The translations under genes and the position numbers were made by a program. This document shows, piece by piece, positions 1-28,983 of a stretch of 64,000 nt of DNA (positions within the stretch are counted from its first letter, which is position 1; each line of letters opens with the position of its first letter). The notes under the pieces were generated by a model that made no database searches, was not told the DNA's origin, and saw only the letters and a list, made by a program, of their open reading frames with translations. The stretch is from Croceivirga thetidis (GTDB lineage: Bacteria; Bacteroidota; Bacteroidia; Flavobacteriales; Flavobacteriaceae): assembly GCF_012272815.1 (NCBI RefSeq), contig NZ_JAAWWL010000001.1, positions 1,301,146 to 1,365,145 of the forward strand, given 5' to 3'.

Positions 1-821
1 CCTTCATGGATTTGAGCGAGTTGATTGTTATATGGCCCAATATGGTCGCCCATCCCCATTTTATCAACCACAGTTCTGGCAGGGCGATTACCAGCCGGTG
101 TATTGATGAGCTTCACAATTGCATCTGCCACATTCTGTGGGTCTTGTACTGGATTATTGGCCAAAGCGCCCTCGAAGCTATCAAAGGCTTGCTTGGGTGC
201 ATGTACCATTTCACCATAGCTCTCATCTTGTGAGCGGTCGGATGGTTTCATTAGATTATCAAAGAACCCAGTCGGATATCCTCCTGGCTCTACGAGGCAG
301 GAATCCACTCCAAATCCTGACAATTCTATTCGATAATTTTCAGCTAACGCTTCTACGGCCCATTTTGAAGCATTGTAGGGACCGTAAAAGGGAAAGGTAA
401 TTCTCCCCAGTATACTTGAAATGTGAATCAACAATCCAGACCCCTCTTTCCTTAAGTGGGGCAAAGCTGCTCGATTCACACGCTGAACCCCAAAGACATT
501 TACGTCGAATAGCTTTTTGAAATCATCAATCGTGAACTGTTCTTGAATTCCCAGAACGCCAATACCTGCGTTATTGATTACAACATCTAAGCCACCGAGA
601 AGCTCAATTGTGTTTTTAATTCCTTCATTTACGCTTTCCTCGTCTGTAACATCTAGATTTATGATTTTTGCCCCTAGTACAGATAGTTCATCTGCCGAAG
701 CTTTGTTTTTTGAATCAGGACTGCGCATGGTAGCCACGACTTCATGCCCGTTCTTTAAAAGTGTTTTTACGGTTAAGGCTCCAAAGCCTCCATTCGCTCC
801 AGTGATTACTACTTTTGCCAT
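1..821 (-). CDS. SDR family NAD(P)-dependent oxidoreductase (3' end outside window)
   Basis: Reverse-complement translation from the ATG at 819-821 gives MAKVVITGANGGFGALTVKTLLKNGHEVVATMRS... with a TGxxGxxG Rossmann motif and a downstream YNASK (YxxxK) catalytic motif. The ORF stays open to position 1. It is absent from the ORF track because it runs off the window edge. Confidence 0.8.
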   Translation of the reverse strand, partial: MAKVVITGANGGFGALTVKTLLKNGHEVVATMRSPDSKNKASADELSVLGAKIINLDVTDEESVNEGIKNTIELLGGLDVVINNAGIGVLGIQEQFTIDDFKKLFDVNVFGVQRVNRAALPHLRKEGSGLLIHISSILGRITFPFYGPYNASKWAVEALAENYRIELSGFGVDSCLVEPGGYPTGFFDNLMKPSDRSQDESYGEMVHAPKQAFDSFEGALANNPVQDPQNVADAIVKLINTPAGNRPARTVVDKMGMGDHIGPYNNQLAQIHE

Positions 822-923
822 TTTATTGTGTTTTTAATTGATACTCGTACAAAATTCTAAATCAATTGGTTATTCTATGTAGTCGAATCCTAGAGATTTG
901 TAGCCAAAAAAAATTCTAAGATT

Positions 924-2222
924 TTAATCGATAACAATTGAAGTAGCGTTGCTTTCTGTTCCACTAGCATTTACCGCTTTTACTTCAAAGTTACCTAAGG
1001 CATTTTCCAAAAGGTATTTGGTTCCATAGGCTTGTTGCTCGAATTCACCATTTTTATAAATGTTGTATCCAACGACCCAACTTCCTTTATCCAAATCTTT
1101 TGAGGGATCCCAGCTAAGTATTCCATTTTTGAAGACCAGGTTCTCTGGTTTTGTGGGAGGAGTTTTATCCAGTTCTGGGACATCCCCCATCATCAAAGCT
1201 TCAATTTCCGCTGCAATTAAATCATCATCACGCTTTTTCTGAATATGCCCCTGATTTTTGTCATGGGTACTATCCCATGTGCAAACACCTTTTTCCGACA
1301 GGGTAATGGTTCCATTTAAAAAAGCTGTATAGTTTTCACCCTCTCCACGAATGGCATAATGAAGGGCAATTTGGTCGTTGCTATGTCGTGCAATACTTTC
1401 TGCGCCACCACGATACTCAAAGTGTTTCTCATAACTGACCCTTGCGATATGGTCGGCTGACAGTGTTTTTAAACCTTGACCCGACATCACGTTGCCGTTA
1501 TTGGCATTGAAGTAGTCACCATTGCCATTTTCCCAGCCTGATGCCACAAAGGGGGCGGGGCAATGTTCTATGACATAGCGGCACATGCGGTTTCGCTCTT
1601 GATTCAGGCAGGACCAATCTGTATAGGAACAAAGGTGGTCAGCACCACCCCAATTGGTTCGGTCCCAACCTTTGTTGTTTAGAAAGTTACCGCCCATAGT
1701 GGCTACAAGGGCGACCTTTTCGGCTACTAATTGCTTACCGCTCTTAGAACTGATTTCATCTGGTTCTGATTTTAGAAGCCCATATAAGTTATGCATGGTA
1801 CCCACAACAATTATCGTAATACTGTTGTCTTGGGCACTTTCTAAGATTTCGCGGTATAGTTTAACTCCGTCCAATGATTCTTCCCAAGTCTTCAATGGTC
1901 TTGGGTAGTCCTTGGCAATATGGAAATCATAGGTATTTTCAGTTGCATGTATTTTCTCAGCATACCCTTTATAATCTCCAACTGGAATCCCCGGCCTGTT
2001 GTAAAATTGGTTAATGGCACTCATACAAAGTGCTGATTCTTTTTGGTTGGTAGAATTGACCATGGCCAAAATATCACACTCTCCGTTAGTGGCCATTGTC
2101 TGTAACATGGCAATACAACCCACATCGTCTGGGTCAAAAGAGGGGTCGGTGTCAAGTATTACCTTTAATTGTGCATTTGTCTGAAATGAAAGGAATATTA
2201 AAAGGAAAAATACGGTTCTCAT
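924..2222 (-). CDS. secreted nucleoside-hydrolase-like protein with C-terminal FN3-like domain
   Basis: N-terminal signal peptide (MRTVFFLLIFLSFQTNAQ). VILDTDPSFDPDDVGC resembles the IU-nucleoside hydrolase DxDxxxDD Ca/ribose-binding motif. The C-terminal roughly 90 aa has a fibronectin-III-like pattern (WDPSKD...GYNIYKNG). ATG confirmed at 2220-2222. Confidence 0.5.
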   Translation of the reverse strand: MRTVFFLLIFLSFQTNAQLKVILDTDPSFDPDDVGCIAMLQTMATNGECDILAMVNSTNQKESALCMSAINQFYNRPGIPVGDYKGYAEKIHATENTYDFHIAKDYPRPLKTWEESLDGVKLYREILESAQDNSITIIVVGTMHNLYGLLKSEPDEISSKSGKQLVAEKVALVATMGGNFLNNKGWDRTNWGGADHLCSYTDWSCLNQERNRMCRYVIEHCPAPFVASGWENGNGDYFNANNGNVMSGQGLKTLSADHIARVSYEKHFEYRGGAESIARHSNDQIALHYAIRGEGENYTAFLNGTITLSEKGVCTWDSTHDKNQGHIQKKRDDDLIAAEIEALMMGDVPELDKTPPTKPENLVFKNGILSWDPSKDLDKGSWVVGYNIYKNGEFEQQAYGTKYLLENALGNFEVKAVNASGTESNATSIVID

Positions 2223-2266
2223 ATTGTAGTAGGAATAGGTCCCTTTAAAGTATAAAATTTTTCAGT

Positions 2267-4519
2267 TCAGCGTTTGCGTAATATATCTTGTATGGTGTCA
2301 ACTACTTGATCAACATTAGCCTTTGAAAAACATAAGGGTGGCTTGCTTTTAATCACATTATCAAAAGGACCATCGGTACTGACTAGGATATATTTTTCTC
2401 GAAGTTCATTTTTAAGGTATTGTGCCAGTTTCGTATTTGGCTCTTTGGTTCCCGGAACTACAATATCGACACCTATAAAAAGGCCTGAGCCTCTTATATC
2501 TCCAATTTCCGGATGTTGCTTTTGTAATTCTTTAAGAGAAGACATATAATAATTACCGACGTCGAATGCATTTTTTTGAAGTTCTTCTTCTGCTATAACG
2601 CCTAAGACAGCCTTACCAATTTCACAGGAAACAGGATTGCCCCCGAAAGAGCTGAAAAATTCCACTCCTTTTTCAAACGATGCTGCAATCTCATCGGTCG
2701 TCACCACAGCACCAATGGGGTGCCCATTGCCCATGGGTTTTCCTAAAATTACAATATCAGGAACCACGTTTTGTTTTTCAAAACCCCAGAAAACATCGCC
2801 CAAACGGCCAAATCCGGTTTGCACTTCATCACTTATGCAAACACCACCTTGTTCACGAACCAGAGGATAAATTGCCTTTAGATAACCAGGTGCCAAAGGT
2901 ACTTGTCCGCCGCATCCAACTACAGGTTCGGCGATAAATGCCGCGACTTTTCCTTCAAAATCATCAAGTTGTTGTCGTACTTCTTGTGCGTGATTTTCAC
3001 CCACAGCTTTAGCATACGGGCTTCTAAATTCATCAGGTAGACTCGCCTTTAAAATAAAAGGTTTTTGCCCTTGCCCTTTGGTATTACTGAACTTATAATC
3101 ACTAATATCAATTCCGATTTGGGAGTTGCCGTGATACCCATGTTCCATGACCATGATATTGTGACTCTTGGTATGGCAGATGGCCAGGCGTATGGCCAAA
3201 TCACTTGCTGCACTACCCGAATTGACAAAAAAGACTTTATTTAAGGAAGAAGGAAATTTTGCTAGCAATTGTTCAGCATATTCGGCCAATTGCGCGTATA
3301 AGTACCGGGTATTGGTATTTAATTGGTTCATTTGACGCATTGCCGCTTCAACAACTAGCGGATGCTGGTGCCCAACATGGGGAATGTTGTTGTAGGCATC
3401 TAAAAAAGTATTGCCGCTCGCATCAAACATATATTGAAAAGCCGCTTTTTGCATTGCGATAGGCTTTTTATAACTAATTGAAAGAATGTCTGAGATGTGC
3501 TTTTTTCTTGCAGTCAAATGTTCTTCAGAAGTAGCATTTTGAATGGGTGGATATCCTACCGCAGAACGAAAACAGTTTTCTGCTTTTAGCGACCCAATTT
3601 GTAACCATTCTTCTAGCATGTTCCATGCTTTAGTTTCGCTGATTGATGCGTATTCATTACTAGGGTCTGTCTTGGCCGCATGTGCCGAATTACAAACACT
3701 GGTGCAAAGCCTCATGGCAATCAAATAATAAAGTGCCGAAACTTCCTTTTCTTGGATAGGCAGTATTTCATGATAAGCCCTTAACAAAGGCTCCACCCAT
3801 TGTAAAGGAGTTTCGCTCCGGTAAAAAACGTACGTAGCTGTAATGGCAATTTCATTAATTAAATAGGTGTGTGTACAATCACCGAAATCAATTATTCCTG
3901 TAACCTCATTATCGCGAACCAAAATGTTCCATTCATTTAGATCGTTGTGAATACAGGCCGTTCGAAAATCGTGTAAATGGGGAATTACATTTTGCTCATA
4001 TTGTTGGAAAAAGTACCGTACGAGGTTCCTGTTTTTTGAGGATTTAATATCCTTTACATACTCCTTATTTAGTTCAACGTGCTGCAGGTCCCATTCCCAT
4101 TTTCGGGCCCTAAGGGCCACATGGTCAAAATTTTGAAGAGCTTTGGTCAAGTTGGCAATAAATCGCCCTAAAGAACTTACCAAAGCTGTTTTTAACTTGA
4201 CATCGGCCATGAATGCTCCATTAACAAACGTCAACATTCTACATAATTGTGCTGTGTTATTTAGTGTTGCGGTTTTTAGAAAATTCCCGTCTGAAAATGC
4301 AACTGGTTCTGGAATTTCTTTAAAACCTTCTGTTTTTAAATGAAGAAGCATTTCATTTTCTGCAGATACAATTTCCAACATATTGGCAGGTTTGGTATAG
4401 GTTTTGAAAATAAATTTACCCTGGTCAGTATCAACCAAGTAATTCTTATTATCGTAGCCATTCAGTGTTTTGATATTGGTACTGGAAAATCCAAATTCCT
4501 TTTTTAGAAAGGCATTCAT
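2267..4519 (-). CDS. bifunctional APH-fold phosphotransferase / class-III aminotransferase-fold PLP enzyme (kinase + putative phospho-lyase)
   Basis: The N-terminal half carries aminoglycoside-phosphotransferase-like motifs ([17 protein letters not shown]). The C-terminal half is a class-III aminotransferase fold ([25 protein letters not shown]). 750 aa; ATG confirmed at 4517-4519. Confidence 0.75.
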
Positions 4520-4706
4520 TATCAGTTAGGTTTATCCAAATTTCGGAAAAGCTTCGCATAGTTTTTTGAAATAATTAGGGGTTTTGAACGCTGATCATAA
4601 AATGCTTCGATAACTGTTAAAAGAAAGTAGGGCATAAGGTCTTTTTTTCATCGATTTGTATTGTAAATTCGAGGCAATCAGAAAGCACATTACTAAAAAA
4701 CTCAAG

Positions 4707-5471
4707 ATGAAAATTATATCCTACAACGTGAACGGAATCAGGGCTGCAATGAAAAAAGGTTTTGTCGATTGGCTTTCTTCAGTTGAGGCAGACGTAGTTT
4801 GCATTCAAGAGACAAAGGCACTAAAGGAGCAAGTCGAAACCGAAGCCTTGGAAGAAATCGGATTCTCTCATCATTATTGGTACAGTGCAGAAAAAAAAGG
4901 GTATAGTGGTGTTGCAGTTTTGTGCAAAGAAAAACCCGATAACGTTGAATATGGTACTGGTATAGACTACATGGACAATGAAGGCCGTAATCTCAGGGTA
5001 GATTTTGGGGACGTCTCGGTAATGAGCATGTATTTACCTTCAGGTACCAACATGGATCGGTTGGATTTTAAATTAACTTATATGGCCGATTTTCAAAAGT
5101 ATGCTGATGATTTGCGAAAAGAAAGACCGAATCTCATCGTCTGTGGGGATTATAATATTTGTCATGAGGCAATAGACATTCACGACCCGGTCAGAAATAA
5201 AAAGGTCTCCGGTTTTTTACCTATTGAGCGTGAGTGGATTGGTAATTTTATTAAAAGTGGATTCATCGATAGTTTTCGTCATTTTAATAAAGAGCCCCAC
5301 AATTACACTTGGTGGAGCTATCGTGCAAATGCACGGGCGAATAATAAAGGTTGGCGATTAGATTATGGTATGGTAAATGACAGCTTAAAAGACCGACTAA
5401 AGCGTTCAGTTATTTTATCTGAAGCAAAGCATAGTGATCACTGCCCCATTCTACTTGAAATTGAAAAATAA
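4707..5471 (+). CDS. xth: exodeoxyribonuclease III
   Basis: MKIISYNVNGIRA...VVCIQETK is the classic ExoIII/APE1 N-terminus. The ORF track starts at 4656, but the ATG at 4707 matches the family N-terminus. Confidence 0.85.
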   Translation: MKIISYNVNGIRAAMKKGFVDWLSSVEADVVCIQETKALKEQVETEALEEIGFSHHYWYSAEKKGYSGVAVLCKEKPDNVEYGTGIDYMDNEGRNLRVDFGDVSVMSMYLPSGTNMDRLDFKLTYMADFQKYADDLRKERPNLIVCGDYNICHEAIDIHDPVRNKKVSGFLPIEREWIGNFIKSGFIDSFRHFNKEPHNYTWWSYRANARANNKGWRLDYGMVNDSLKDRLKRSVILSEAKHSDHCPILLEIEK

Positions 5472-5599
5472 CGGGATTATTAAATTCCCACTTTTGTGGA
5501 TTTCCTATTTTTGGACGTTTTCTTAAAAATCATGTGAAATACTGAATATGCGGAAATTTTTAGTCGATTTCTTTTCAGTAAACTAGAAATTGTAAATAG

Positions 5600-6640
5600 A
5601 TGAAATACACCTTTATACCAAGAACAAAAATTCGTGTCAGCAAGATTTGTTTAGGTACCATGACCTGGGGAAGGCAGAACAGTGAAGACGAAGCCTTTGA
5701 ACAAATGGATTATGCCTTGGACCAAGGAGTCAATTTTTTTGATACTGCTGAATTATATCCAGTACCACCTAAAAAAGAGTTGTACGCCCTGACCGAAGAG
5801 TATATAGGTAATTGGTTTAAGAAAACAGGAAACCGAGATAAGGTAGTTCTCGCTTCAAAAATAGCAGGGCCGGCCGATTTCACAAAATACATAAGGACTA
5901 CAGGGTTCAGTAAGGATTCGATTCTAGAAGCAATTGATGGTAGCCTGAAACGATTACAAACTGACTACGTAGATCTGTATCAGTTGCATTGGCCGGAACG
6001 AAACACCAATTTTTTTGGACAACGTGGTTTTAATGCTGATAATGATGATCATTGGGAAGACAACATACATGAGGTTCTAAATACGTTATCAGATCTCATA
6101 AAAGCTGGTAAAATTCGAGAGGTAGGTATTTCAAATGAAACACCATGGGGAACCATGCGTTATTTGGAAGAAAGCAAAGTGCATGAACACTTACCCAGAA
6201 TGGTAACAGTTCAAAACCCATACAGCTTATTGAACCGTACGTTTGAAACTGGAATGTCAGAGATATCAATTCGAGAGAAAATAGGTTTACTCGCCTATTC
6301 TCCTTTGGGATTTGGGGTTTTGAGCGGAAAATATTTAGGAGAGGTTCCTCCTCGAAAAGGAAGGATTACACTTTTTCCTCATTATTCGCGATATAGCGGT
6401 GAAACTGCCACAGCTGCTACGGAGAAGTACAATCAATTGGCTGAAAAAAATGGACTTTCATTGGCTCAAATGGCTCTTGCTTTTGTGAATACTCGAAAAT
6501 TCTTGACAAGCAATATCATTGGAGCAACCACCATGGAGCAGTTGAAAGAGAATATCGCTTCCATAGATATTGAATTGAGTAAAGAAGTTCTCCAAGGTAT
6601 TGAAGAAATTCACGGTGATATTCCTAATCCAGCACCATGA
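5600..6640 (+). CDS. NADP-dependent aldo/keto reductase (Tas-like)
   Basis: MKYTFIPRTKIRVSKICLGTMTWG... is the Tas/AKR family N-terminus. 346 aa is typical for the family. Confidence 0.8.
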   Translation: MKYTFIPRTKIRVSKICLGTMTWGRQNSEDEAFEQMDYALDQGVNFFDTAELYPVPPKKELYALTEEYIGNWFKKTGNRDKVVLASKIAGPADFTKYIRTTGFSKDSILEAIDGSLKRLQTDYVDLYQLHWPERNTNFFGQRGFNADNDDHWEDNIHEVLNTLSDLIKAGKIREVGISNETPWGTMRYLEESKVHEHLPRMVTVQNPYSLLNRTFETGMSEISIREKIGLLAYSPLGFGVLSGKYLGEVPPRKGRITLFPHYSRYSGETATAATEKYNQLAEKNGLSLAQMALAFVNTRKFLTSNIIGATTMEQLKENIASIDIELSKEVLQGIEEIHGDIPNPAP

Positions 6641-6745
6641 TATCTGCGGTTCTTTTAAGAATAGGTTTTGGTCAGATTCTGCTTATCGTAGTGGTTATCT
6701 TGCTTATTTTTCTATTAACCAGAATGTTTAGGAACAAATAGAACT

Positions 6746-8914
6746 CTATTTTTCGAGCGCATAAGCACGATATTCATCGCCTGATTTTGTACCCATTTTA
6801 CCTCCACCACATGCAACAACTAAGAACTGTTGCCCTCCAACCTCATACATAGCTGGGGTAGCATAACCACCTGCAGGTAAGTTATCTTCCCATAATTGTT
6901 GGCCATTTTTCATATCAAAAGCACGAATTTTTTCATCTCGAGTTGCTGCGATAAAAAGTAGTCCACCGGCAGTAATGACAGGGCCACCATAATTCTCTGT
7001 TCCAGAAATTGGTATTGAAGGGTCATTTAATTTTTCCTCATGCCCCAAGGGAACTTTCCATAAATATTCACCTGTATTTAAATCAATGGCATTAAGTGTG
7101 CCCCAAGGTGGTTTTACAACAGGAAATCCACGGTCATCTTTAAATCGACCAAAACCAGCGACCGCATAAGGTACCTTAATAGATGATTTTTCTGCTCGGT
7201 GATCGGTTTCCATTTCAATGCCCGAAATGTAGTGCGTTATGGCATTGATTTCTACTTCTGATAGATTGGGCATTCCAGGCATTGCTCCTTTTCCATTCTT
7301 AATTATTTTACCAATGGAATCAAGACTTAATCTTTCTTTTATCGTTTGTAGCTCAGGTATTCCCGCAAGTCCTTGTAATTCACCACCGTGGCAACGGGCG
7401 CAATTAATTTGAGTTAAGGCTTCTCCAGGGTGGCTTCCTTCGCCCTCATCTTCTAGCACTTCTTTCATTCGAACAATCCAAGCCATTTCATTTGAGTTGA
7501 CATACATGACCCCATCTCTTGGGTCTAAAGCTGCACCGCCCCATTCAGCCCCTCCGTCTGCGCCTGGGTAAAGGATGGTTCCAAGGGTGTCAATCGGCAT
7601 AAACTGACCTTTTGAAGTAATGGATTCTAGTTTTTCGAGAACCGTAGGTGGATCAATATTTTGATCTTTATCTACAAAATCATCAACAAATGCAGGTCGA
7701 TTTGGTTGGTACAAGTCATTTTTTGTTAATTCTTGCCTTGCAAATGGGGCAGGTTTTGTGGGAAGTGGTTGTGTGGAATGTGCCGATTCGCCTTTTAGAC
7801 TTGAAGGCGGGTATTCTTTTTCTTCTATGGGGAATAATGGTTCTCCGGTTACCCGGTTGAAGACAAAGACATGACCACTTTTGGTAACTTGGGCAACCGC
7901 CGGAATTTTATCCCCATCACGGTCTAGTTCAAAAAGGTTGGGAGGCGCAGGCAGATCCCTATCCCACATATCATGATGAACAAATTGAAAATGCCAAAGT
8001 CGTTCCCCTGTTTGGGCGTCAAGGGCCAAAAGACTATTTGCAAACAGATTTTCCCCATGTCGATCACCCCCATACCAATCAAAGGCCGCAGACCCAGTGG
8101 GGAAGTATACAATACCACGATCAAGATCAACAGCATTTCCTGACCAGCTATTTGCCCCACCAACTGTTTTATAAGCATCTTTGGGCCAAGTTTGGTAACC
8201 ATACTCTCCAGGTTGTGGAATTGTATGGAATGTCCATCGTATTTCACCCGTAACAACATCGTACGCTCGAATATGGCCTGGTGAAGAACCGGGTCCTTCA
8301 CCAACTCGGGTACCCATAATAATTAAATCCTTATAAATTGCCCCAGGGGTGTTTGCATAAACTGCCAACTGCTCCTTATTCCTTCCAAGACCGTCGCGCA
8401 AATCGATACTCCCATTTTCTCCAAAAGTGTCGATTGCTTTGCCCGTTTTTGCCGAAACGGCATATAATCGGAAACCGGAAGCGAAAAACAATCGATTTTC
8501 TTCACTTTCACTGTTTGACTGCCAATAGCTTAGGCCGCGATTTAAACCTAGTCCAGTATTGTCCTTAGCATTTGGTATGTATTTCCAAATTTCTGATCCA
8601 GTTTTTGCATTTAACGCAAATAGTTCAATAGAAGGATTTACACCGTACAATATTCCATCAATGATTAAAGGGTTGGTTTGAATTTGGGTAGTTCTTCCTT
8701 CTTCCAAACCACCGCTTTTATAGCTCCATGCCAGTTTTAGAGAATTGACATTTGTCGTATTTATTTCAAGGAGCTCAGAAAAATGGGACCTTTCAGGGTC
8801 TCCCAAATAGTGTTGCCAAGTTTTAGTAAATGGTGATTTTTTTTCTACAGGGTTAGAGCATCCCAGAAAAATAAAAGTTAGAATAAGACCAATTAATAGA
8901 TACCAATTTCTCAT
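6746..8914 (-). CDS. PQQ-dependent (quinoprotein) beta-propeller dehydrogenase with inserted c-type cytochrome domain
   Basis: Lipoprotein-type signal (LIGLILTFIFLGCS). Repeated W-containing propeller blades typical of PQQ glucose/sorbosone dehydrogenases. A CARCHGG (CxxCH) haem c site sits in the middle of the protein. ATG confirmed. Confidence 0.7.
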   Translation of the reverse strand: MRNWYLLIGLILTFIFLGCSNPVEKKSPFTKTWQHYLGDPERSHFSELLEINTTNVNSLKLAWSYKSGGLEEGRTTQIQTNPLIIDGILYGVNPSIELFALNAKTGSEIWKYIPNAKDNTGLGLNRGLSYWQSNSESEENRLFFASGFRLYAVSAKTGKAIDTFGENGSIDLRDGLGRNKEQLAVYANTPGAIYKDLIIMGTRVGEGPGSSPGHIRAYDVVTGEIRWTFHTIPQPGEYGYQTWPKDAYKTVGGANSWSGNAVDLDRGIVYFPTGSAAFDWYGGDRHGENLFANSLLALDAQTGERLWHFQFVHHDMWDRDLPAPPNLFELDRDGDKIPAVAQVTKSGHVFVFNRVTGEPLFPIEEKEYPPSSLKGESAHSTQPLPTKPAPFARQELTKNDLYQPNRPAFVDDFVDKDQNIDPPTVLEKLESITSKGQFMPIDTLGTILYPGADGGAEWGGAALDPRDGVMYVNSNEMAWIVRMKEVLEDEGEGSHPGEALTQINCARCHGGELQGLAGIPELQTIKERLSLDSIGKIIKNGKGAMPGMPNLSEVEINAITHYISGIEMETDHRAEKSSIKVPYAVAGFGRFKDDRGFPVVKPPWGTLNAIDLNTGEYLWKVPLGHEEKLNDPSIPISGTENYGGPVITAGGLLFIAATRDEKIRAFDMKNGQQLWEDNLPAGGYATPAMYEVGGQQFLVVACGGGKMGTKSGDEYRAYALEK

Positions 8915-8941
8915 ACTTAAAGGTAGAAATTGAAAATGGTT

Positions 8942-10303
8942 TTAACCAAAAAGGCCACGTACCATATCTTGTACCTTACCCAATTTGATAACCTCAATTT
9001 TCGGATTTTTTATCCCAACTGTACAGTTTTTTGAAATGTAGATTTTTGTGAAGCCCAACTTTTCAGCCTCTATTATGCGTTGATCCACACGTTGTACTGG
9101 TCTGACTTCACCCGCCAAACCAACTTCAGCAGCAAAACAATTGTTTTTTTCAACCGCAATGTCGACATTACTTGAAAGGATGGCCGCAACCACAGCCAAA
9201 TCAATCGCTGGGTCGTCTATTGATATTCCACCGGTAATATTTACAAAAACATCTTTGGCAGCTAGTTTAAATCCAGCTCTTTTTTCAAGAACGGCTAATA
9301 ACATGTTCAATCTCTTAGCATTGTAACCAGTTGCTGACCTTTGAGGGGTGCCATAGACCGCCGTACTGACCAAAGCTTGAATTTCAATGAGCAAAGGGCG
9401 CATTCCTTCTACAGTTGCAGCAATCGCCATTCCGCTAAGGTCTTCCTCGTTTTTAGAAATCAAGACTTCAGATGGGTTATTTACCTCACGTAAACCTCTA
9501 CTTTGCATCTCGTAAATGCCCAATTCAGCGGTAGAACCAAATCGGTTTTTCAAGGCACGAAGAATTCGGTAAACATAGTTTCTGTCACCTTCAAATTGAA
9601 GGACAGTATCAACCATATGCTCCAAAATTTTTGGACCAGCAATGGTGCCGTCCTTTGTAATATGGCCAACCAAAACAACGGGTGTGTTACTTTCTTTAGC
9701 AAACTTGATAAGTTCGGCAGTGCATTCCCTTATTTGCGATATACTGCCGGCAGCCGAATCTATATAGTCAGAATGTAAGGTCTGTATGGAATCTATTATT
9801 AGCAAATCGGGCTCCAACTGCGAGATTTGCTGAAAAATATTTTGGGTTTTGGTTTCAGTGAGAATGTAACAATTTTCGGAATTCGGATTTATTCGGTCCG
9901 CCCGCATCTTTATTTGCTTTTGACTTTCTTCACCTGACACATATAAGGTTTTGAACGGAAGGCTTAGCGCTATCTGAAGTAATAAGGTACTTTTTCCGAT
10001 GCCGGGTTCTCCACCTAAAAGCGTAAGTGAGCCAGGCACGATTCCTCCCCCTAAAACTCGATTGAATTCTTTGTTTTTAGAATCCAGACGAATTTCAGAA
10101 TCGTTTGAAATTGTATTGATTTTTAAAGGTTTATTGGCCTTACTAGGACTATTATTTGAGGATTTCCAGGTTGTTTTTTCCTCTTTTTGCACCACTTCCT
10201 CGACTACAGTATTCCACTGCTTACAAGATGTACATTGTCCGACCCATTTTGGAAACTGGGCGCCACAATTTTGGCAGAAAAAAGCAGTTTTTGTCTTAGC
10301 CAT
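8942..10303 (-). CDS. radA: DNA repair protein RadA
   Basis: N-terminal C4 zinc finger (CQNCGAQFPKWVGQCTSCKQWNT), Walker A (GGEPGIGKST), and a Lon-like C-terminal domain. ATG confirmed at 10301-10303. Confidence 0.9.
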   Translation of the reverse strand: MAKTKTAFFCQNCGAQFPKWVGQCTSCKQWNTVVEEVVQKEEKTTWKSSNNSPSKANKPLKINTISNDSEIRLDSKNKEFNRVLGGGIVPGSLTLLGGEPGIGKSTLLLQIALSLPFKTLYVSGEESQKQIKMRADRINPNSENCYILTETKTQNIFQQISQLEPDLLIIDSIQTLHSDYIDSAAGSISQIRECTAELIKFAKESNTPVVLVGHITKDGTIAGPKILEHMVDTVLQFEGDRNYVYRILRALKNRFGSTAELGIYEMQSRGLREVNNPSEVLISKNEEDLSGMAIAATVEGMRPLLIEIQALVSTAVYGTPQRSATGYNAKRLNMLLAVLEKRAGFKLAAKDVFVNITGGISIDDPAIDLAVVAAILSSNVDIAVEKNNCFAAEVGLAGEVRPVQRVDQRIIEAEKLGFTKIYISKNCTVGIKNPKIEVIKLGKVQDMVRGLFG

Positions 10304-10332
10304 TTGGCTAAGATAGGGAAGCTAATAGACAA

Positions 10333-11475
10333 TCAATATCCAAAATCAGCTTTGAGCGCATCTATTTTTTCAATGGCCATTTCTTTGGTTAAAAAGTCGA
10401 TTTCCTCCATCAAGAAAGATTTCTCAAAAGCCTTTTTTGCCTTCTTTGGCTCACCTATGTATTCGAGGTATTCGCCCTCGAAGTAAAAACCCAACATGGT
10501 TTCTGGATATGTCTTCTTACAAAGTTTTGCAAGTTCACCCAATGATTCATAATCTTCTTTTTTGAGCACACCCGCATAGATAGCCATAACATCGTTAAGT
10601 TCGATTTCTTTTTCAAAACCCAATAAATTCTCAATCATGGCATATTTGTCGAGTAAATATTGAAAAACCGGTTGGTCTGAAGTCAAAATTTTCTCTTTGT
10701 ACTCTTTTGGACTTATGGGTCTAAAAATCTTGAATACATTATCGAATGCTTTACTTATTCCATATGCGGCAATTGAGGTATGATCCGGTTCTTCGTATTG
10801 GTCAAAGAAGTAACGAATATTCTCTTTGTCAATAGAAGTAATTGCCCTGTCCATTTGAAGAATTCGGTTTCTGTCCTCAGTATTTTCTTTTTCTAAAACC
10901 AAATTGTAAAAAATCTGTTGCTTTAAATCCGTTAATCTTGCCGGAACCCTCGCTTCCATTTCTGTTGCCAGAAGTGGAGATATTATTAGGTAGGAGTTAA
11001 AAATCGACTGATCTTCAAACAAAAAGTAGTTGCCAAAATTTGCAGTTATGTCATAACCAATAAACATTTTAAATGGGGCAATACTATAGGTACCTTCCAA
11101 ATACGGAATTAGTTCTTTGCCAATAAAATCGTAGAACTCTTGTGCGTTGTCTGTTGGTAAGCCTGTAGTTTGTTCAAAATCACAATCTTCCCACCTTAGG
11201 TCATAACTAACTTGGTTAACGCCTACAATAATCGCTTCGGGCATTCTTTGATAGGTACCATAGAATTTTGCGTTGGCTACTACCATATCAAAAAGATACT
11301 CCGCATCCAAAACCAATATGAGCGGATATTTTTTTTCTTCTGTATAATCTTCTGGAAAGAAATATTGAAGCTGCCTGCTATCTTGAAGTATGTACGAATC
11401 AAATTTTTCGGAAGTGACCTGTGCTTGTAACCCAATACAAAGTAGTCCGAAAAGCAGAAGTAGTTTTTTGGTCAT
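10333..11475 (-). CDS. secreted esterase-like alpha/beta-hydrolase-fold protein (possibly non-catalytic)
   Basis: Signal peptide (MTKKLLLLFGLLCIGLQAQ). YPLILVLDAEYLF resembles the putative-esterase (PF00756-like) family. No clean GxSxG nucleophile elbow was seen. Confidence 0.35.
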   Translation of the reverse strand: MTKKLLLLFGLLCIGLQAQVTSEKFDSYILQDSRQLQYFFPEDYTEEKKYPLILVLDAEYLFDMVVANAKFYGTYQRMPEAIIVGVNQVSYDLRWEDCDFEQTTGLPTDNAQEFYDFIGKELIPYLEGTYSIAPFKMFIGYDITANFGNYFLFEDQSIFNSYLIISPLLATEMEARVPARLTDLKQQIFYNLVLEKENTEDRNRILQMDRAITSIDKENIRYFFDQYEEPDHTSIAAYGISKAFDNVFKIFRPISPKEYKEKILTSDQPVFQYLLDKYAMIENLLGFEKEIELNDVMAIYAGVLKKEDYESLGELAKLCKKTYPETMLGFYFEGEYLEYIGEPKKAKKAFEKSFLMEEIDFLTKEMAIEKIDALKADFGY

Positions 11476-11500
11476 TAGGTTATTCTTTTGATTATCAGTG

Positions 11501-12466
11501 CTATCGGTTTCGGTTCAATAACGGCAGTAACACAAAAGATATTGCCCCAAATAGGAGAATCATAAGGGTTTGGGCAATCCACATAATCCATCCAAATGCT
11601 GTACCACTAACTGTGCTGACATCAAATAATTCCAAAGATTTACTAACTGCTATCGGAAAAGCTAGAAATCCTCCATTGGTCGTTGTCATGGCAAAAGCAC
11701 CACCAACAAATGCCACCAAAATTGCCCCAAAGGAAAGGTCAACCGTTTCTAAGACTGTGAATTTAATAACCCAGAACATGAAAATGTAAGCAGTCCAGAT
11801 TACAAAGGTGTGAAAGATAAAAGCCCATTTTCGTTTAATCTTGAAGATGCTCAGAACTCCTTTAAGAGTATCATCCAGAAAGTTCTTGATTTTAATTGCT
11901 ATTGGGGAGGTGGATTTTCGTAGAACACGAATACCTAAAATCAAACCTATTATACCAACTATGATAAGTAAAGCCCCGCCTAAAATTCCTATTCCTGACT
12001 CTTTAATGAAACCGAGTATTAAATCGGTTTGAAGAATAAGTGCTATACCGATAACAAGAAATAGCATTATTAAGTCGATGATTCTTTCTGTCACAATGGT
12101 GCCCATGCCTTTTTCAAATGGAACGCCTTCATAGGTTGAAAGGGCAGTGGCCCTTAAAATTTCGCCCGATCTAGGCACACCTAAATTTGCTAGATAAGCA
12201 GTTAATATGATTAATGTATTGTTGAGTAATTTAGGTCTGTAGCCTAGGGGTTCTAAAAGGTAATTCCATCTAATTGCCCTAGAAATGTGGCTCAGTATTC
12301 CGATTAAAATTGAGATTGAGACCCAAAACAAATCGGCTTGTTTGATGTAAGAAACTATTTCAGAACGTTGTTCTGGGGTAGTAGAATTATATAAATACCA
12401 TATCAGAAATGCCCCAAGACCAATTGGGATGATAAATTTTAGGGTCTTTTTAAATTGGTCTGACAA
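11501..12466 (-). CDS. lysylphosphatidylglycerol-synthase-TM-like (UPF0104 / flippase-like) membrane protein
   Basis: Multi-pass membrane protein with an RW..LL...G and PxRxGE..R pattern typical of the LPG_synth_TM family. The only start available before the conserved N-terminus is TTG at 12466. Confidence 0.6.
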   Translation of the reverse strand: MSDQFKKTLKFIIPIGLGAFLIWYLYNSTTPEQRSEIVSYIKQADLFWVSISILIGILSHISRAIRWNYLLEPLGYRPKLLNNTLIILTAYLANLGVPRSGEILRATALSTYEGVPFEKGMGTIVTERIIDLIMLFLVIGIALILQTDLILGFIKESGIGILGGALLIIVGIIGLILGIRVLRKSTSPIAIKIKNFLDDTLKGVLSIFKIKRKWAFIFHTFVIWTAYIFMFWVIKFTVLETVDLSFGAILVAFVGGAFAMTTTNGGFLAFPIAVSKSLELFDVSTVSGTAFGWIMWIAQTLMILLFGAISFVLLPLLNRNR

Positions 12467-26171: not shown

Positions 26172-27716
26172 TCGCTTATGAATGACTGCGTTTTCAACAG
26201 TATCCAAAACCTGGTAATTTTTTAGAAGTTCCAACTGCGCATAAAAATTCGAAGCATACTTCTCGTGATAAAATATTCTCCTGTTTTTTCGAGTAACAAT
26301 AAATTCCGGTTTCTTGATTTCGAATATAAATTTCAATTCTTCAAATTTATTGGTTCTATGATTCGCCATGTAGGGGAATAATTCATCACGTAGTAAATTA
26401 CTTGGGTGTGTAGCAGCTTTAGTAGGAGGATTTATTCCCATCACCCAATATCCAATATGATATTCAAAGAATAGAATATTGTTTGTTGACAATTCATTTT
26501 CTGAAAAATACCTTGGCACAGAAACCCCTTCGCCATTGTAAAAGGTGTCATATTCTGTTTTGTTCTTTACGATATTCCCATACTCTAGATAGCTTTCAAT
26601 CGGTAATAATAATATCAAAATTGGTGTCAACACTAGAAATGTTTTTGTCTTGAAAATTGAAAATGTAGCTAAAGCACAAACAAGTAAAACAATTAGAAAC
26701 GGATAAAACTGAATTAAATAGTGTCCGTTCGCTTTTCCCGCCTGAAGAAACGAAAACAAAACCCCAAATCCAGTAAACAGCAAAATCTTGGTATTAGTTG
26801 GTTTATTCTTGAGAAAAGACCTCCAAAGGAATACCAGAACAGTTCCGAAAATTAGTACTGTTGGCAGCACCTTTAAAACAGAATTGTCTTGTGCTTCAGC
26901 GTAAGCCAAGGGAGCCTTAAAAACCGAACCCCACCATAAATTAGGTTGACCAGTTGATTGATATGGCAGAAACGTTAGGAAAACAACAAAACAAATTGAC
27001 GAACCACAAACTAAAAGGCGCGCAATCGTCATTTTTAGGTTTTGATTTCTATAACTTTCCCAAAGACTGAACGCAAAAAGAAAAACCAATGGATAACCCA
27101 TGTTTAATTTGCTCATCACAGCAAGTCCAAACAATAGCCCCGCCAAGACAGTAAAAAGCCTATTTCTGTTGTCAAGAAAAAGGTATAGACCTGGTATAAA
27201 AAAGGCCATACTGATATGCTCAGACATCACCCCTTGTAAGCTTCCAAAGAGACTAAAAAGCACTATGACCAATAAAGCCGAAATAATGCTTGAACTCTTA
27301 CTGGAATGTCTCTTGGTTATTTTGAAAGTGTAAAATGCGGCAATTGTGACTAATAGGGTACCCATCAATCTAATGGCCAAAAAGCTCTTGCCGAATATTT
27401 TTACGATTACAGCAAAAAATAAGAATGTAACCGGAGGTTTTAGGTCCCAAAGCTCAGTGTAAGGTAAGTTTCCATCTGCCCACGATTGCCCCATTAAAAT
27501 AAATGTGCTCTCGTCTCGGTCAATATAATCACGAAAAAAAAACGGGAATCGTATAAAAAATGCGTAAACAAACAGACCTACGAAGAGCTGCCACTCCTTA
27601 ATCTGATCTATAAAATCAAAAAATCGGGAAGTTGCTATTCTTGACAATCTTAGGGAAGTTTTTTTGCCATCTTTGCAAGATAGAAAATTGCAAGCGCTAT
27701 TGGAAGATTTGAACAA
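26157..27716 (-). CDS. glycosyltransferase family 39 (ArnT/PMT-like) membrane protein
   Basis: Many TM helices. The N-terminal loop (DRDESTFILMGQSWADGNLPYTELWDLKPP) resembles ArnT/PMT. The start is TTG at 27716 or TTG at 27647; no in-frame ATG precedes TM1. Confidence 0.6.
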   Translation of the reverse strand: MFKSSNSACNFLSCKDGKKTSLRLSRIATSRFFDFIDQIKEWQLFVGLFVYAFFIRFPFFFRDYIDRDESTFILMGQSWADGNLPYTELWDLKPPVTFLFFAVIVKIFGKSFLAIRLMGTLLVTIAAFYTFKITKRHSSKSSSIISALLVIVLFSLFGSLQGVMSEHISMAFFIPGLYLFLDNRNRLFTVLAGLLFGLAVMSKLNMGYPLVFLFAFSLWESYRNQNLKMTIARLLVCGSSICFVVFLTFLPYQSTGQPNLWWGSVFKAPLAYAEAQDNSVLKVLPTVLIFGTVLVFLWRSFLKNKPTNTKILLFTGFGVLFSFLQAGKANGHYLIQFYPFLIVLLVCALATFSIFKTKTFLVLTPILILLLPIESYLEYGNIVKNKTEYDTFYNGEGVSVPRYFSENELSTNNILFFEYHIGYWVMGINPPTKAATHPSNLLRDELFPYMANHRTNKFEELKFIFEIKKPEFIVTRKNRRIFYHEKYASNFYAQLELLKNYQVLDTVENAVIHKRLPVQ

Positions 27717-28983
27717 ATCTAAAAGTTTAGTTGAAAGGGATAGGAACCATCTTTGGCACCCTTTGACGCAACATCAAACGGCACCACCACCTTTGGCAAT
27801 TACCAAGGCAAAAGGGGCATTGATTTGGGATGAATGTGGCAATAGTTATATCGATGGTATTGGTTCTTGGTACACTGCTATGTATGGTCATGCGAATGAG
27901 CACATCATTAACGCCATGACAAATCAAATGAAGCAGCTTGATTTTGTGATGTTCAGTGGTTTTACCCATGCACCTGCCATTGAACTTTCAGAACGACTAT
28001 TGGATATTTTACCATCAAACCAATCACGAATTTTCTTTAACGATAATGGCTCCACTGCGATTGAGGCCGGAATCAAAATGGCACTACAATACCATTTTAA
28101 TCGTGGTGAAAAGCGCGATACGCTGATTGCCTTTGAAGATGGTTTCCATGGAGATACATTTGGGGCAATGAGTGCCTCTGGCTTGTCATCATACAATGGC
28201 CCATTTGAAGATTTTCTTCTTAAAGTTGAACGCATACCAGTTCCAAAAGAAGATTCCATTGCTGATGTGGTCAAGATTTTAGAGGAAATACTTGCCGCGA
28301 ATTCTTGTGCAGCGTTTGTTTTTGAACCTTTGGTTCAAGGAGCCGCAGGCATGAAATTTCATTCTGCTGAGGGGCTCGATTTACTCTTGAAAAAATGTCA
28401 AGAGAACGGTGTGATTTGTATTGCAGACGAAATCATGACTGGTTTTGGAAAAACGGGGAAGAATTTTGCGTCTGAATATTTGAATGCTGAACCCGATATC
28501 ATATGCCTAAGTAAGGCTTTGACTGCGGGTATGTTTCCGTTGAGCATCACGAGTTGTGCGGAACATTTGTTCGAAGCGTTTTTGAGTGATGAGGTTTCAA
28601 AAGGCTTTTTTCATGCACATACTTTTAGTGCCCATCCGATAGGTTGTGCGGCAGCCCTAGCCGGACTTGATTTGTTAAATTCTGAAGAGATTCTCCAAAG
28701 AAGAAGTGCTATTGCAAATGCCCATATAAATTTTGTCCATCAAGTAATTGACCATCCTAAAGTCAAAGATGCCCGAAGTAAAGGTGTTATTTTGGCAATT
28801 GATTTAGACATAACCATAAGTCGATATGGTAAAACCCGTGACGAACTGTATCAATTTTTCATGAAAAGAGGGGTAAACTTGCGTCCTTTGGGCAACGCGA
28901 TTTATGTACTGCCACCATATGTCATTACCGATTCTGAATTAAACAAAATTTATAATGCTATTCTAGAACTGCTGGAGGCTTAA
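27664..28983 (+). CDS. bioA: adenosylmethionine-8-amino-7-oxononanoate aminotransferase
   Basis: LVERDRNHLWHP matches BioA LAFDQRHIWHP, within a class-III aminotransferase fold. The true start is probably TTG at 27700 or 27709; the ORF-track start at 27664 is also TTG. Confidence 0.8.
   Translation: MPSLQDRKLQALLEDLNKSKSLVERDRNHLWHPLTQHQTAPPPLAITKAKGALIWDECGNSYIDGIGSWYTAMYGHANEHIINAMTNQMKQLDFVMFSGFTHAPAIELSERLLDILPSNQSRIFFNDNGSTAIEAGIKMALQYHFNRGEKRDTLIAFEDGFHGDTFGAMSASGLSSYNGPFEDFLLKVERIPVPKEDSIADVVKILEEILAANSCAAFVFEPLVQGAAGMKFHSAEGLDLLLKKCQENGVICIADEIMTGFGKTGKNFASEYLNAEPDIICLSKALTAGMFPLSITSCAEHLFEAFLSDEVSKGFFHAHTFSAHPIGCAAALAGLDLLNSEEILQRRSAIANAHINFVHQVIDHPKVKDARSKGVILAIDLDITISRYGKTRDELYQFFMKRGVNLRPLGNAIYVLPPYVITDSELNKIYNAILELLEA

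What the first reader, a model, noticed from the sequence alone, without database searches (positions are those of the whole stretch)
2267..4519. Fused APH-fold kinase and class-III aminotransferase-fold enzyme: candidate amino-alcohol kinase / phospho-lyase
In mammals, separate APH-like kinases (for example hydroxylysine kinase) and AGXT2L1/AGXT2L2 class-III aminotransferase-fold phospho-lyases degrade ethanolamine and hydroxylysine via their O-phosphates. Here both activities are in one 750-aa chain, which predicts a two-step substrate-channeling catabolic enzyme. The substrate is unknown.
Basis: partly seen in the sequence, partly recalled or inferred. Interest (0 to 1): 0.5.

Follow-up and report, generated by a model that had tools for sequence, protein, structure and literature searches.

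The report
Fused amino-alcohol kinase and phospho-lyase
This is a real 750-residue protein that joins a hydroxylysine-kinase-like kinase to a phosphoethanolamine-phospho-lyase-like PLP enzyme, but the fusion is a common, previously noted bacterial architecture and only its natural substrate remains unknown.

Summary
Window 2267..4519 (minus strand) is one intact 750-aa ORF with an N-terminal APH-fold kinase and a C-terminal class-III aminotransferase-fold domain.

The interpretation also holds.
- The kinase half is most similar to human hydroxylysine kinase (27% identity over its full length, E 1e-43). All of its catalytic motifs are intact.
- The PLP half is 44-47% identical to the two human phospho-lyases, ETNPPL and PHYKPL. 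Its best solved-structure matches are the two proven phospho-lyases, 6tor and 5g4i.
- The PLP half keeps every cofactor residue but has lost the three residues that define 2-oxoglutarate-using transaminases (GabT R141, E211, R398 become N465, C536, K724).

The fusion is not new. An identical protein is already in NCBI (Croceivirga thetidis). At least 574 species genomes carry relatives. Two-domain, three-domain (with an M23 peptidase insert) and unfused adjacent-gene forms all exist. As I recall it, this bacterial fusion was the clue that led to the discovery of the mammalian enzymes in 2012.

The gene has no conserved neighbours, and comparison of the two human paralogues does not point to a substrate. 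Ethanolamine is my best guess; 5-hydroxylysine and 1-aminopropan-2-ol remain open. Substrate channeling is untested.

The parts
2267..4519 (-). Complete ORF, 750 aa plus stop codon: bifunctional kinase / phospho-lyase
   Evidence: identical to P0001 from Croceivirga thetidis
3545..4519 (-). N-terminal HYKK-like APH-fold small-molecule kinase domain (residues 1-325)
   Evidence: Pfam APH E 2.7e-24. BLASTP to human HYKK 27% identity, E 1e-43. AF2 pLDDT mostly 76-95 by 10-residue block over residues 1-330 (two blocks at 73).
3926..3949 (-). Kinase catalytic loop H191-N-D193-L-N-E-W-N198 (HxDxxxxN; D193 is the catalytic base, N198 a Mg ligand)
   Evidence: D193 and N198 are invariant in 78 genomes.
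3878..3889 (-). D211-F-G-D214 metal-binding motif of the kinase. K39 (4403-4405) and E54 (4358-4360) form the nucleotide-phosphate pair.
   Evidence: D211, D214 and K39 are invariant; E54 is kept in 77 of 78.
3464..3544 (-). Inter-domain linker (residues 326-352). This is the point where the three-domain relatives carry a Peptidase_M23 insert.
   Evidence: The NCBIfam PRK06148 model matches residues 3-327 to model 18-346 and residues 328-748 to model 582-1009. M23 lies at 437-536 of the Paracoccus relative. pLDDT falls across this segment, to about 55 for residues 341-350.
2270..3463 (-). C-terminal class-III aminotransferase-fold PLP domain of the AGXT2L (ETNPPL/PHYKPL) phospho-lyase type (residues 353-750)
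   Evidence: Pfam Aminotran_3 E 4e-78. PDB 6tor E 7e-114 and 5g4i E 1.2e-87. Foldseek top hits 6tor and 5g4i.
2738..2740 (-). K594, the Schiff-base (PLP) lysine. Other cofactor residues: G435-S436, Y462-H463, E531, D564, Q567, S624.
   Evidence: Aligned with E. coli GabT K268, G111-S112, Y138-H139, E206, D239, Q242, T297. All invariant in 78 genomes.
2342..3136 (-). Span holding the three positions that replace the transaminase specificity residues: N465 (GabT R141), C536 (GabT E211) and K724 (GabT R398). K726 lies beside K724; the clade-specific R405 in NTNTRY lies just outside at 3302-3319.
   Evidence: Residue roles from the PMC8154272 supplement.
4520..4655 (.). 136-bp divergent intergenic region between the fusion gene and xth. 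It contains GAAATTTGG about 20 nt upstream of the ATG, which resembles the Bacteroidota -7 element TAnnTTTG. The promoter reading is inference only.
   Evidence: Sequence read. No sigma-70 excess. No Rfam match.

Best explanation
The gene encodes a self-contained two-step catabolic enzyme for a vicinal amino alcohol (R-CH(OH)-CH2-NH2).

Step 1: the N-terminal HYKK-like kinase uses ATP or GTP to phosphorylate the hydroxyl group. D193 acts as the base, N198 and D211 hold Mg2+, and K39-E54 hold the nucleotide phosphates.

Step 2: the C-terminal PLP domain forms an external aldimine with the amino group by displacing K594. It then removes the alpha proton, eliminates phosphate (1,2-elimination) and releases an enamine that hydrolyses. 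The products are an aldehyde, NH4+ and Pi.

The enzyme most likely works as a homodimer, because class-III-fold active sites are built from two subunits. My preferred substrate is ethanolamine (giving acetaldehyde), which would provide a B12-independent route to use phospholipid head groups as a nitrogen and carbon source.

Shown here: domain identities, intact catalytic residues in both halves, loss of transaminase residues, conservation of the fusion. Inferred: the chemistry (by homology to assayed enzymes), the oligomeric state, the substrate.
For: - Domain calls.
- C-domain similarity: 46.6% identity to human ETNPPL, 44% to PHYKPL, 37% to the Arthrobacter PEtN phospho-lyase A1RDF1, but only 28% to E. 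coli GabT.
- PDB sequence and fold searches both rank 6tor and 5g4i first.
- All PLP-binding residues are kept, while the gateway pair E211/R398 and R141 of GabT are C536, K724 and N465. ETNPPL has C, K, H at these positions and A1RDF1 has T, K, N. The meaning of these residues, and the His in ETNPPL, are stated in the PMC8154272 supplement.
- The N-domain matches human hydroxylysine kinase end to end (E 1e-43).
- Catalytic residues of both domains are invariant or nearly so in 78 species, so both activities are under selection.
- The same kinase and lyase pair recurs as adjacent or overlapping genes and as three-domain fusions in Proteobacteria and haloarchaea. Such recurrence is the classic signature of consecutive steps of one pathway.
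- The activities of ETNPPL and PHYKPL (aldehyde, ammonia and phosphate release) are reported in PMC8233209, PMC4564198 and PMC8154272.
- For ethanolamine specifically: the only assayed bacterial family member I know of (A1RDF1) acts on phosphoethanolamine; its PDB entry is named a phospholyase.
Against: - No member of this 750-aa Bacteroidota subfamily has been assayed, to my knowledge.
- The gene has no conserved neighbour in 78 loci (the largest shared neighbour cluster covers 7 loci), so no transporter, regulator or aldehyde dehydrogenase supports any particular substrate.
- At positions that differ between human ETNPPL and PHYKPL, the fusion family matches ETNPPL 12 times and PHYKPL 13 times, so this gives no preference.
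- In vertebrates the HYKK-type kinase partners with the hydroxylysine branch, not the ethanolamine branch, which argues mildly for a hydroxylysine-like substrate.
- The AF2 model of the C-domain is only moderately confident.
Confidence: 0.8

Rival explanations
1. Same two-step chemistry, but the physiological substrate is 5-hydroxy-L-lysine, for example from animal collagen degraded by marine Bacteroidota. The product would be 2-aminoadipate semialdehyde, which enters lysine catabolism.
For: The kinase half is a homologue of hydroxylysine kinase. In vertebrates this kinase type feeds PHYKPL, to which the C-domain is 44% identical. Carriers are mostly marine Flavobacteriaceae and Cytophagales, some recovered from invertebrate or sponge-type samples.
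Against: The bacterial C-domain is equidistant from ETNPPL and PHYKPL, which are 67% identical to each other and so look like a late animal duplication. Discriminating positions split 12 to 13. The kinase is only about 27% identical to HYKK and equally distant from the unfused bacterial kinases. No lysine-catabolic neighbour was found. The family also occurs in sediment Bacteroidales, Balneolaceae, Aminicenantes and haloarchaea, where collagen is an unlikely staple.
Confidence: 0.2
2. Same chemistry, but the substrate is 1-aminopropan-2-ol (from aminoacetone or threonine breakdown), giving propionaldehyde, as in the mycobacterial aminoacetone-utilisation pathway.
For: The second-best solved match of the N-domain is 6ef6 (E 7e-5). 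I recall this as the M. smegmatis (S)-1-amino-2-propanol kinase; the paper is cited in PMC8007038. In an E. coli plasmid, an SDR dehydrogenase, a kinase and a lyase form overlapping genes, which fits an aminoacetone to aminopropanol to propionaldehyde route.
Against: Those unfused proteins are only 25-28% (kinase) and 38-39% (lyase) identical to the window protein (BLASTP). The unfused lyases, like A1RDF1, lack the 3-residue Y-K-F loop segment that the window protein, ETNPPL and the Paracoccus three-domain protein share. No SDR gene or microcompartment shell gene is conserved beside the Bacteroidota fusion.
Confidence: 0.15
3. The C-domain is a true aminotransferase, and the protein is a biosynthetic kinase-aminotransferase that makes, rather than degrades, a phosphorylated amine.
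For: NCBI annotates it only as an 'aminotransferase class III-fold PLP-dependent enzyme'. Pfam and NCBIfam transaminase models match at E 1e-50 to 1e-78, though all NCBIfam hits are below their cut-offs.
Against: The gateway Glu/Arg and the distal Arg of 2-oxoglutarate-using class-III transaminases are all replaced. The Arg-to-Lys change at the R398 position is also seen in another class-III lyase, PbfA. The nearest assayed relatives are lyases; as I recall, A1RDF1 showed no transaminase activity. A genuine class-III transaminase in the same window (BioA, 27664-28983) passes its NCBIfam cut-off (515 bits against 405), while the fusion passes none.
Confidence: 0.04
4. The fusion is an assembly or frameshift artefact that joins two adjacent genes.
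For: Unfused adjacent kinase and lyase genes exist in other bacteria.
Against: The single ORF is conserved in length and register in 78 other species and in all 120 best database clusters.
Confidence: 0.01

Closest known systems
Human ETNPPL (AGXT2L1, phosphoethanolamine phospho-lyase, PDB 6tor) and PHYKPL (AGXT2L2, 5-phosphohydroxy-L-lysine phospho-lyase)
   Same: Same fold and 44-47% identity over about 420 residues. Same PLP residues and the same replacement of transaminase residues (C at GabT E211 in ETNPPL, K at R398). Shared NTN(T/S)R(Y/F) motif and Y-K-F loop.
   Different: The human enzymes are stand-alone. The window protein carries its kinase on the same chain. It has N465 where ETNPPL and PHYKPL have His, although 12 of 78 fusion orthologues also have His.
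Human hydroxylysine kinase HYKK (AGPHD1)
   Same: APH fold, colinear over the whole domain, with the same HxDxxxxN and DFGD motifs.
   Different: Only 27% identity. HYKK is a separate protein. Substrate and nucleotide preference of the bacterial domain are unknown.
Bacterial 'bi- or tri-functional' kinase-AGXT2L fusions (NCBIfam PRK06148 / PRK06149). As I recall, these were noted by Veiga-da-Cunha et al., J Biol Chem 2012; 287:7246.
   Same: The N and C parts align to both ends of the models. The window protein is the two-domain form of this architecture.
   Different: It lacks the roughly 235-residue middle segment, which is a Peptidase_M23 domain in the Paracoccus relative. It scores below the model cut-offs (807 against 1128 bits). 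It is only 37-39% identical to the alphaproteobacterial three-domain proteins.
Arthrobacter aurescens A1RDF1 phospho-lyase (PDB 5g4i/5g4j) and the unfused phosphotransferase plus class-III gene pairs of Proteobacteria
   Same: Same lyase family (37-39% identity) and the same kinase-then-lyase gene order.
   Different: They are separate polypeptides. A1RDF1 and the unfused lyases lack the 3-residue Y-K-F segment. The unfused pairs are embedded in operons with GntR regulators, ABC transporters or an SDR, whereas the Bacteroidota fusion stands alone.
Amino alcohol kinase plus amino alcohol O-phosphate phospho-lyase pathway of Pseudomonas and Erwinia (Turner laboratory, 1970s; from memory), and the mycobacterial aminoacetone-utilisation microcompartment kinase (6ef6)
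   Same: The same two-step logic: phosphorylate the amino alcohol, then eliminate phosphate and ammonia to give an aldehyde.
   Different: In those systems the activities belong to separate proteins, and in mycobacteria they are linked to a microcompartment locus. No shell genes or SDR sit near the window gene.

Membership tests
AGXT2L-type PLP-dependent O-phospho-amino-alcohol phospho-lyases (ETNPPL / PHYKPL / A1RDF1) | Class-III aminotransferase (fold-type I) domain with the Schiff-base lysine and PLP-binding residues | tested here: met
   PF00202 E 4e-78. K594, D564, Q567, Y462, G435-S436 and S624 align with GabT K268, D239, Q242, Y138, G111-S112 and T297. All are invariant in 78 species.
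AGXT2L-type PLP-dependent O-phospho-amino-alcohol phospho-lyases (ETNPPL / PHYKPL / A1RDF1) | Closer to assayed phospho-lyases than to any transaminase, racemase or decarboxylase of the fold | tested here: met
   PDB: 6tor 7e-114 and 5g4i 1.2e-87, against the next hit at 1.7e-55. Foldseek gives the same order. Identity is 44-47% to the human lyases and 28% to GabT.
AGXT2L-type PLP-dependent O-phospho-amino-alcohol phospho-lyases (ETNPPL / PHYKPL / A1RDF1) | Loss of the transaminase gateway (Glu/Arg) and distal Arg; Lys at the R398 position; clade-specific Arg in the NTxxR motif | tested here: met
   N465, C536, K724 and R405 match the pattern of ETNPPL and A1RDF1. Residue roles from the PMC8154272 supplement.
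AGXT2L-type PLP-dependent O-phospho-amino-alcohol phospho-lyases (ETNPPL / PHYKPL / A1RDF1) | Catalyses release of phosphate, ammonia and aldehyde from an O-phospho-amino alcohol | not testable with these tools
   Requires an enzyme assay.
HYKK-type APH-fold small-molecule kinases | APH / protein-kinase-like fold with beta3 Lys, alphaC Glu, HxDxxxxN and DFG-type Asp | tested here: met
   PF01636 E 2.7e-24. K39, E54, H191-D193-N198 and D211-F-G-D214 are present and conserved in 78 species. The AF2 N-domain is confident.
HYKK-type APH-fold small-molecule kinases | Full-length similarity to hydroxylysine kinase that exceeds similarity to other APH-fold kinases | tested here: met
   HYKK E 1e-43 over residues 2-323 (sequence identity of P0121 verified). 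The best solved kinases, homoserine kinase 2ppq and 6ef6, are at 1e-5 to 7e-5. All aminoglycoside-resistance APH models are far below their cut-offs.
HYKK-type APH-fold small-molecule kinases | Phosphorylates 5-hydroxy-L-lysine (GTP-dependent in the human enzyme) | not testable with these tools
   Requires an assay. Sequence comparison gave no substrate discrimination.
Three-domain kinase-M23-aminotransferase proteins (NCBIfam PRK06148 / PRK06149) | Whole-protein score above the curated cut-off | tested here: not met
   807 bits against a cut-off of 1128; 619 bits against 973.
Three-domain kinase-M23-aminotransferase proteins (NCBIfam PRK06148 / PRK06149) | Central Peptidase_M23 domain between kinase and PLP domain | tested here: not met
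   Model positions 347-581 have no counterpart in the window protein. M23 is found in the Paracoccus relative but not in the window protein.
2-Oxoglutarate-dependent class-III transaminases (GabT-like) | Gateway E211/R398 and distal-carboxylate R141 (E. coli GabT numbering) | tested here: not met
   C536, K724 and N465 occupy those positions. All NCBIfam transaminase models score below their cut-offs.
Aminoacetone / aminopropanol utilisation loci (mycobacterial microcompartment type) | Kinase and lyase encoded next to an aminopropanol dehydrogenase (SDR) and microcompartment shell genes | tested here: not met
   Neighbours in the window are xth, an aldo-keto reductase, a PQQ dehydrogenase and a secreted nucleoside-hydrolase-like protein. 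No neighbour is conserved in 78 loci.

The most novel reading that the evidence does not exclude
The Bacteroidota-wide, context-free 750-aa fusion may act on a vicinal amino alcohol that is not yet recognised as a bacterial nutrient or turnover product, rather than on ethanolamine, aminopropanol or hydroxylysine. Candidates include a sphingoid or capnoid base fragment, serinol, or another lipid head-group derivative abundant in Bacteroidota. Its strong conservation (C-domain 62-72% identical across orders and phyla) would then reflect a housekeeping salvage or detoxification role rather than opportunistic catabolism.
Probability: 0.15. Interest if true: 0.5.

Novelty: new member of a known kind. 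Interest (0 to 1): 0.25.

Why it matters
If assayed, this subfamily would assign a function to a gene present in at least several hundred species, mostly marine Bacteroidota. It could define a B12-independent route for using ethanolamine or related amino alcohols as nitrogen and carbon sources. It would also provide a natural fused system in which to test whether the phospho-intermediate is channelled. The chemistry and the kinase-lyase association are already established, so the gain is incremental: substrate assignment and better annotation, which is currently only 'aminotransferase class III-fold PLP-dependent enzyme'.

Tried and rejected
1. Gene neighbourhood. I called ORFs in 78 related loci (up to 10 kb of flank on each side) and clustered up to 5 neighbours per side. 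No cluster was shared by more than 7 loci, so the context says nothing about the substrate.

2. ETNPPL versus PHYKPL discriminating positions. The split was 12 to 13, which is uninformative.

3. Pairwise kinase comparisons. The fusion N-domain, HYKK, the unfused kinases and the three-domain N-part are all about 25-29% identical to one another. This star-like pattern identifies no nearest characterised orthologue.

4. Structure prediction of the full chain from a 15-sequence alignment. The N-domain is confident, the C-domain patchy, pTM is 0.60 and residues 346-385, just after the linker, are modelled below pLDDT 50. The model cannot address channeling or domain packing. The fold search only repeated the sequence result.

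5. Regulatory RNA and terminator search around the gene. There was no Rfam match in 1-12000 and no excess of promoter-like or terminator-like sites.

6. Literature. The key papers are not held in the library: Veiga-da-Cunha 2012, Cuetos 2016, Vettraino 2020 and Mallette & Kimber 2018. Statements about their content are therefore from memory. Only their existence and titles are confirmed, through reference lists.

7. I rejected aminoglycoside resistance (all APH resistance models are far below their cut-offs) and a PbfA-type hydroxy-aminophosphonate lyase (198 bits against a cut-off of 525).
Full report
**Observation.** The window carries an ATG-started ORF of 750 codons at 2267..4519 on the minus strand. 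Pfam places an APH phosphotransferase domain at residues 20-250 (E 2.7e-24). It places a class-III aminotransferase domain at residues 353-747 (E 4.1e-78). Both are well above their gathering scores. A 100% identical protein exists in NCBI and UniRef for Croceivirga thetidis (Flavobacteriaceae). The 120 best database clusters are all 732-776 aa and carry both domains.

**The C-terminal half.**
- Against solved structures, the two best matches are human O-phosphoethanolamine phospho-lyase (6tor, E 7e-114) and the Arthrobacter phospho-lyase A1RDF1 (5g4i, E 1.2e-87). The next hit, a racemase, drops to 1.7e-55, and GABA transaminases follow. A Foldseek search with the AF2 model gives the same order.
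- Identity is 46.6% to ETNPPL, 44% to human PHYKPL, 37% to A1RDF1 and 28% to E. coli GabT. The PHYKPL sequence was verified by exact look-up.
- I aligned the domain with E. coli GabT, taken from the K-12 genome. Every cofactor residue is retained: G435-S436, Y462-H463, E531, D564, V566, Q567, S624 and the Schiff-base K594.
- The three residues that define 2-oxoglutarate-using class-III transaminases are replaced. R141 becomes N465, E211 becomes C536 and R398 becomes K724. ETNPPL has H, C, K at these positions and A1RDF1 has N, T, K.
- The roles of E211/R398 (the 'gateway') and R141 are spelled out in the supplement of PMC8154272. So is the His substitution in the lyase ETNPPL. That supplement also notes a Lys at the R398 position in another class-III lyase, PbfA.
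- An Arg in an NTNTRY motif (R405) is present in all seven phospho-lyase-type sequences compared and is Cys in GabT.
It does not look like a transaminase.

**The N-terminal half.**
- BLASTP against human hydroxylysine kinase (sequence verified) aligns residues 2-323 with residues 23-367 of HYKK at 27% identity, E 1e-43.
- No solved kinase comes close. Homoserine kinase 2ppq scores 1.3e-5 and 6ef6 scores 7e-5. All aminoglycoside-resistance models are far below their cut-offs.
- The beta3 Lys (K39), alphaC Glu (E54), HxDxxxxN loop (H191, D193, N198) and DFGD (D211, D214) are all present.

**Conservation and distribution.**
- The 80 best loci are mainly Flavobacteriales, Cytophagales, Saprospiraceae and Bacteroidales. 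A few are MAGs labelled Balneolaceae, Planctomycetota, Aminicenantes and Marinimicrobia. My ORF calls found the single fused gene in 77 of these 80 loci.
- In those 77 loci plus the window, the catalytic residues of both domains are invariant. The only exceptions are H191 (72 of 78), E54 (77 of 78) and N465 (65 Asn, 12 His, 1 Gln).
- The lyase half is more conserved than the kinase half (median 66% against 48% identity to the window protein).
- An exhaustive phmmer search with the kinase half found 4829 cluster representatives at E<=1e-3 and 415 at E<=1e-30. Their lengths group around 320-350, 740-760 and 970-1050 residues.
- Plasmid records show what these length classes are:
  - Alphaproteobacteria carry proteins of about 1000 aa with a Peptidase_M23 domain between kinase and lyase. 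The Paracoccus example has M23 at residues 437-536.
  - Azospirillum, Pantoea and an E. coli plasmid carry adjacent or overlapping 'phosphotransferase' and 'class III' genes in the same order.
- NCBIfam models PRK06148 and PRK06149 describe the three-domain form. The window protein matches their two ends, skips model positions 347-581 and stays below the cut-offs.
- The window protein is therefore the two-domain member of a known module that exists unfused, bi-fused and tri-fused.

**Context.**
- The window neighbours are as follows:
  - a secreted-looking nucleoside-hydrolase-like protein downstream (924-2222, signal-peptide-like N-terminus);
  - divergently transcribed exodeoxyribonuclease III and a Tas-like aldo-keto reductase;
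  - then a PQQ dehydrogenase and RadA.
- None of these is conserved beside the fusion in other species. The largest shared neighbour cluster covers 7 of 78 loci. The gene behaves as a self-sufficient unit.
- No riboswitch or other Rfam family lies nearby.
- A GAAATTTG sequence about 20 nt upstream of the ATG resembles the Bacteroidota -7 promoter element (inference only).

**Mechanism.**
- The best-supported reading is a two-step catabolic enzyme. The kinase phosphorylates the hydroxyl of a vicinal amino alcohol. The PLP domain then performs a 1,2-elimination of phosphate from the external aldimine. The products are aldehyde, ammonium and phosphate.
- These reactions are documented for ETNPPL and PHYKPL (PMC8233209, PMC4564198, PMC8154272).
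- Recurrence of the kinase-lyase pair in three genetic arrangements is strong comparative evidence that the two act consecutively.
- Shown here: the domain identities and intact active sites. Inferred: the chemistry and dimeric state. Guessed: the substrate.
- I favour ethanolamine at about 0.4 of the total probability, 5-hydroxylysine at about 0.2, 1-aminopropan-2-ol at about 0.15 and something else for the rest.
- The attempts to discriminate failed. There is no informative neighbour. ETNPPL-like and PHYKPL-like positions split 12 to 13. All kinase subgroups are equidistant.
The AF2 model has pTM 0.60, and residues 346-385, directly after the inter-domain linker, are modelled below pLDDT 50.

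**Comparison with what is known.**
- From memory, Veiga-da-Cunha et al. (J Biol Chem 2012; 287:7246) stated that bacterial homologues of AGXT2L1/2 form bi- or tri-functional proteins with an APH-family kinase. They used that clue to identify HYKK, PHYKPL and ETNPPL.
- That paper is not in the library. Its title and reference are confirmed, and I reproduced the underlying facts independently here.
- Also from memory: amino alcohol kinase and O-phosphate phospho-lyase activities were described in Pseudomonas and Erwinia in the 1970s. A kinase and lyase pair operates in the mycobacterial aminoacetone-utilisation locus (paper cited).
It is correct but not new.

**Verdict.**
- The specific Bacteroidota two-domain subfamily is, to my knowledge, unassayed and poorly annotated, so I rate it a new member of a known kind, with interest 0.25.
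- The most novel reading not excluded is an unrecognised amino-alcohol substrate tied to Bacteroidota lipid or head-group turnover (probability about 0.15).

Noticed in passing
window 6746-8914 (-): A 722-aa PQQ-dependent dehydrogenase of the glucose/quinate/shikimate type has a cytochrome c domain (residues 496-564) placed between propeller segments (33-486 and 605-701) rather than at the C-terminus. It lacks the membrane anchor region of the NCBIfam model (the match starts at model position 150).
   Followed up: partly
window 924-2222 (-): A 432-aa ORF lies 44 bp downstream of the fusion gene. It has a signal-peptide-like N-terminus (MRTVFFLLIFLSFQTNAQ) and only a sub-threshold inosine-uridine nucleoside hydrolase match (28.3 bits against a cut-off of 34.2), with no NCBIfam hit. 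It is not conserved next to the fusion in other species.
   Followed up: partly
window 27664-28983 (+): A second class-III aminotransferase-fold gene in the window is a clear BioA (TIGR00508, 515 bits against a cut-off of 405). It served as an internal contrast to the fusion, which passes no transaminase model cut-off.
   Followed up: yes
L081 7205-10272 (E. coli plasmid NZ_CP107722.1): SDR oxidoreductase, phosphotransferase and class-III enzyme genes overlap one another. They sit next to an ABC transporter, a GntR regulator and gabT/gabD. The cluster looks like a mobile aminoacetone/aminopropanol (or related amino alcohol) catabolic cassette on an IncFIB plasmid from a human rectal swab.
   Followed up: partly
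L084 7956-10985 (Paracoccus seriniphilus plasmid): A 1009-aa three-domain relative has a Peptidase_M23 domain inserted between kinase and lyase. It lies beside a glutamine-synthetase-family gene, an RpiR regulator and a branched-chain-type ABC transporter. The role of the M23 domain in a small-molecule pathway is unexplained.
   Followed up: partly
window 10333-11475 (-): A 380-aa ORF has only a partial 'putative esterase' match (residues 29-135) and no NCBIfam family. It lies between radA and a lysyl-phosphatidylglycerol-synthase-TM-like gene.
   Followed up: no
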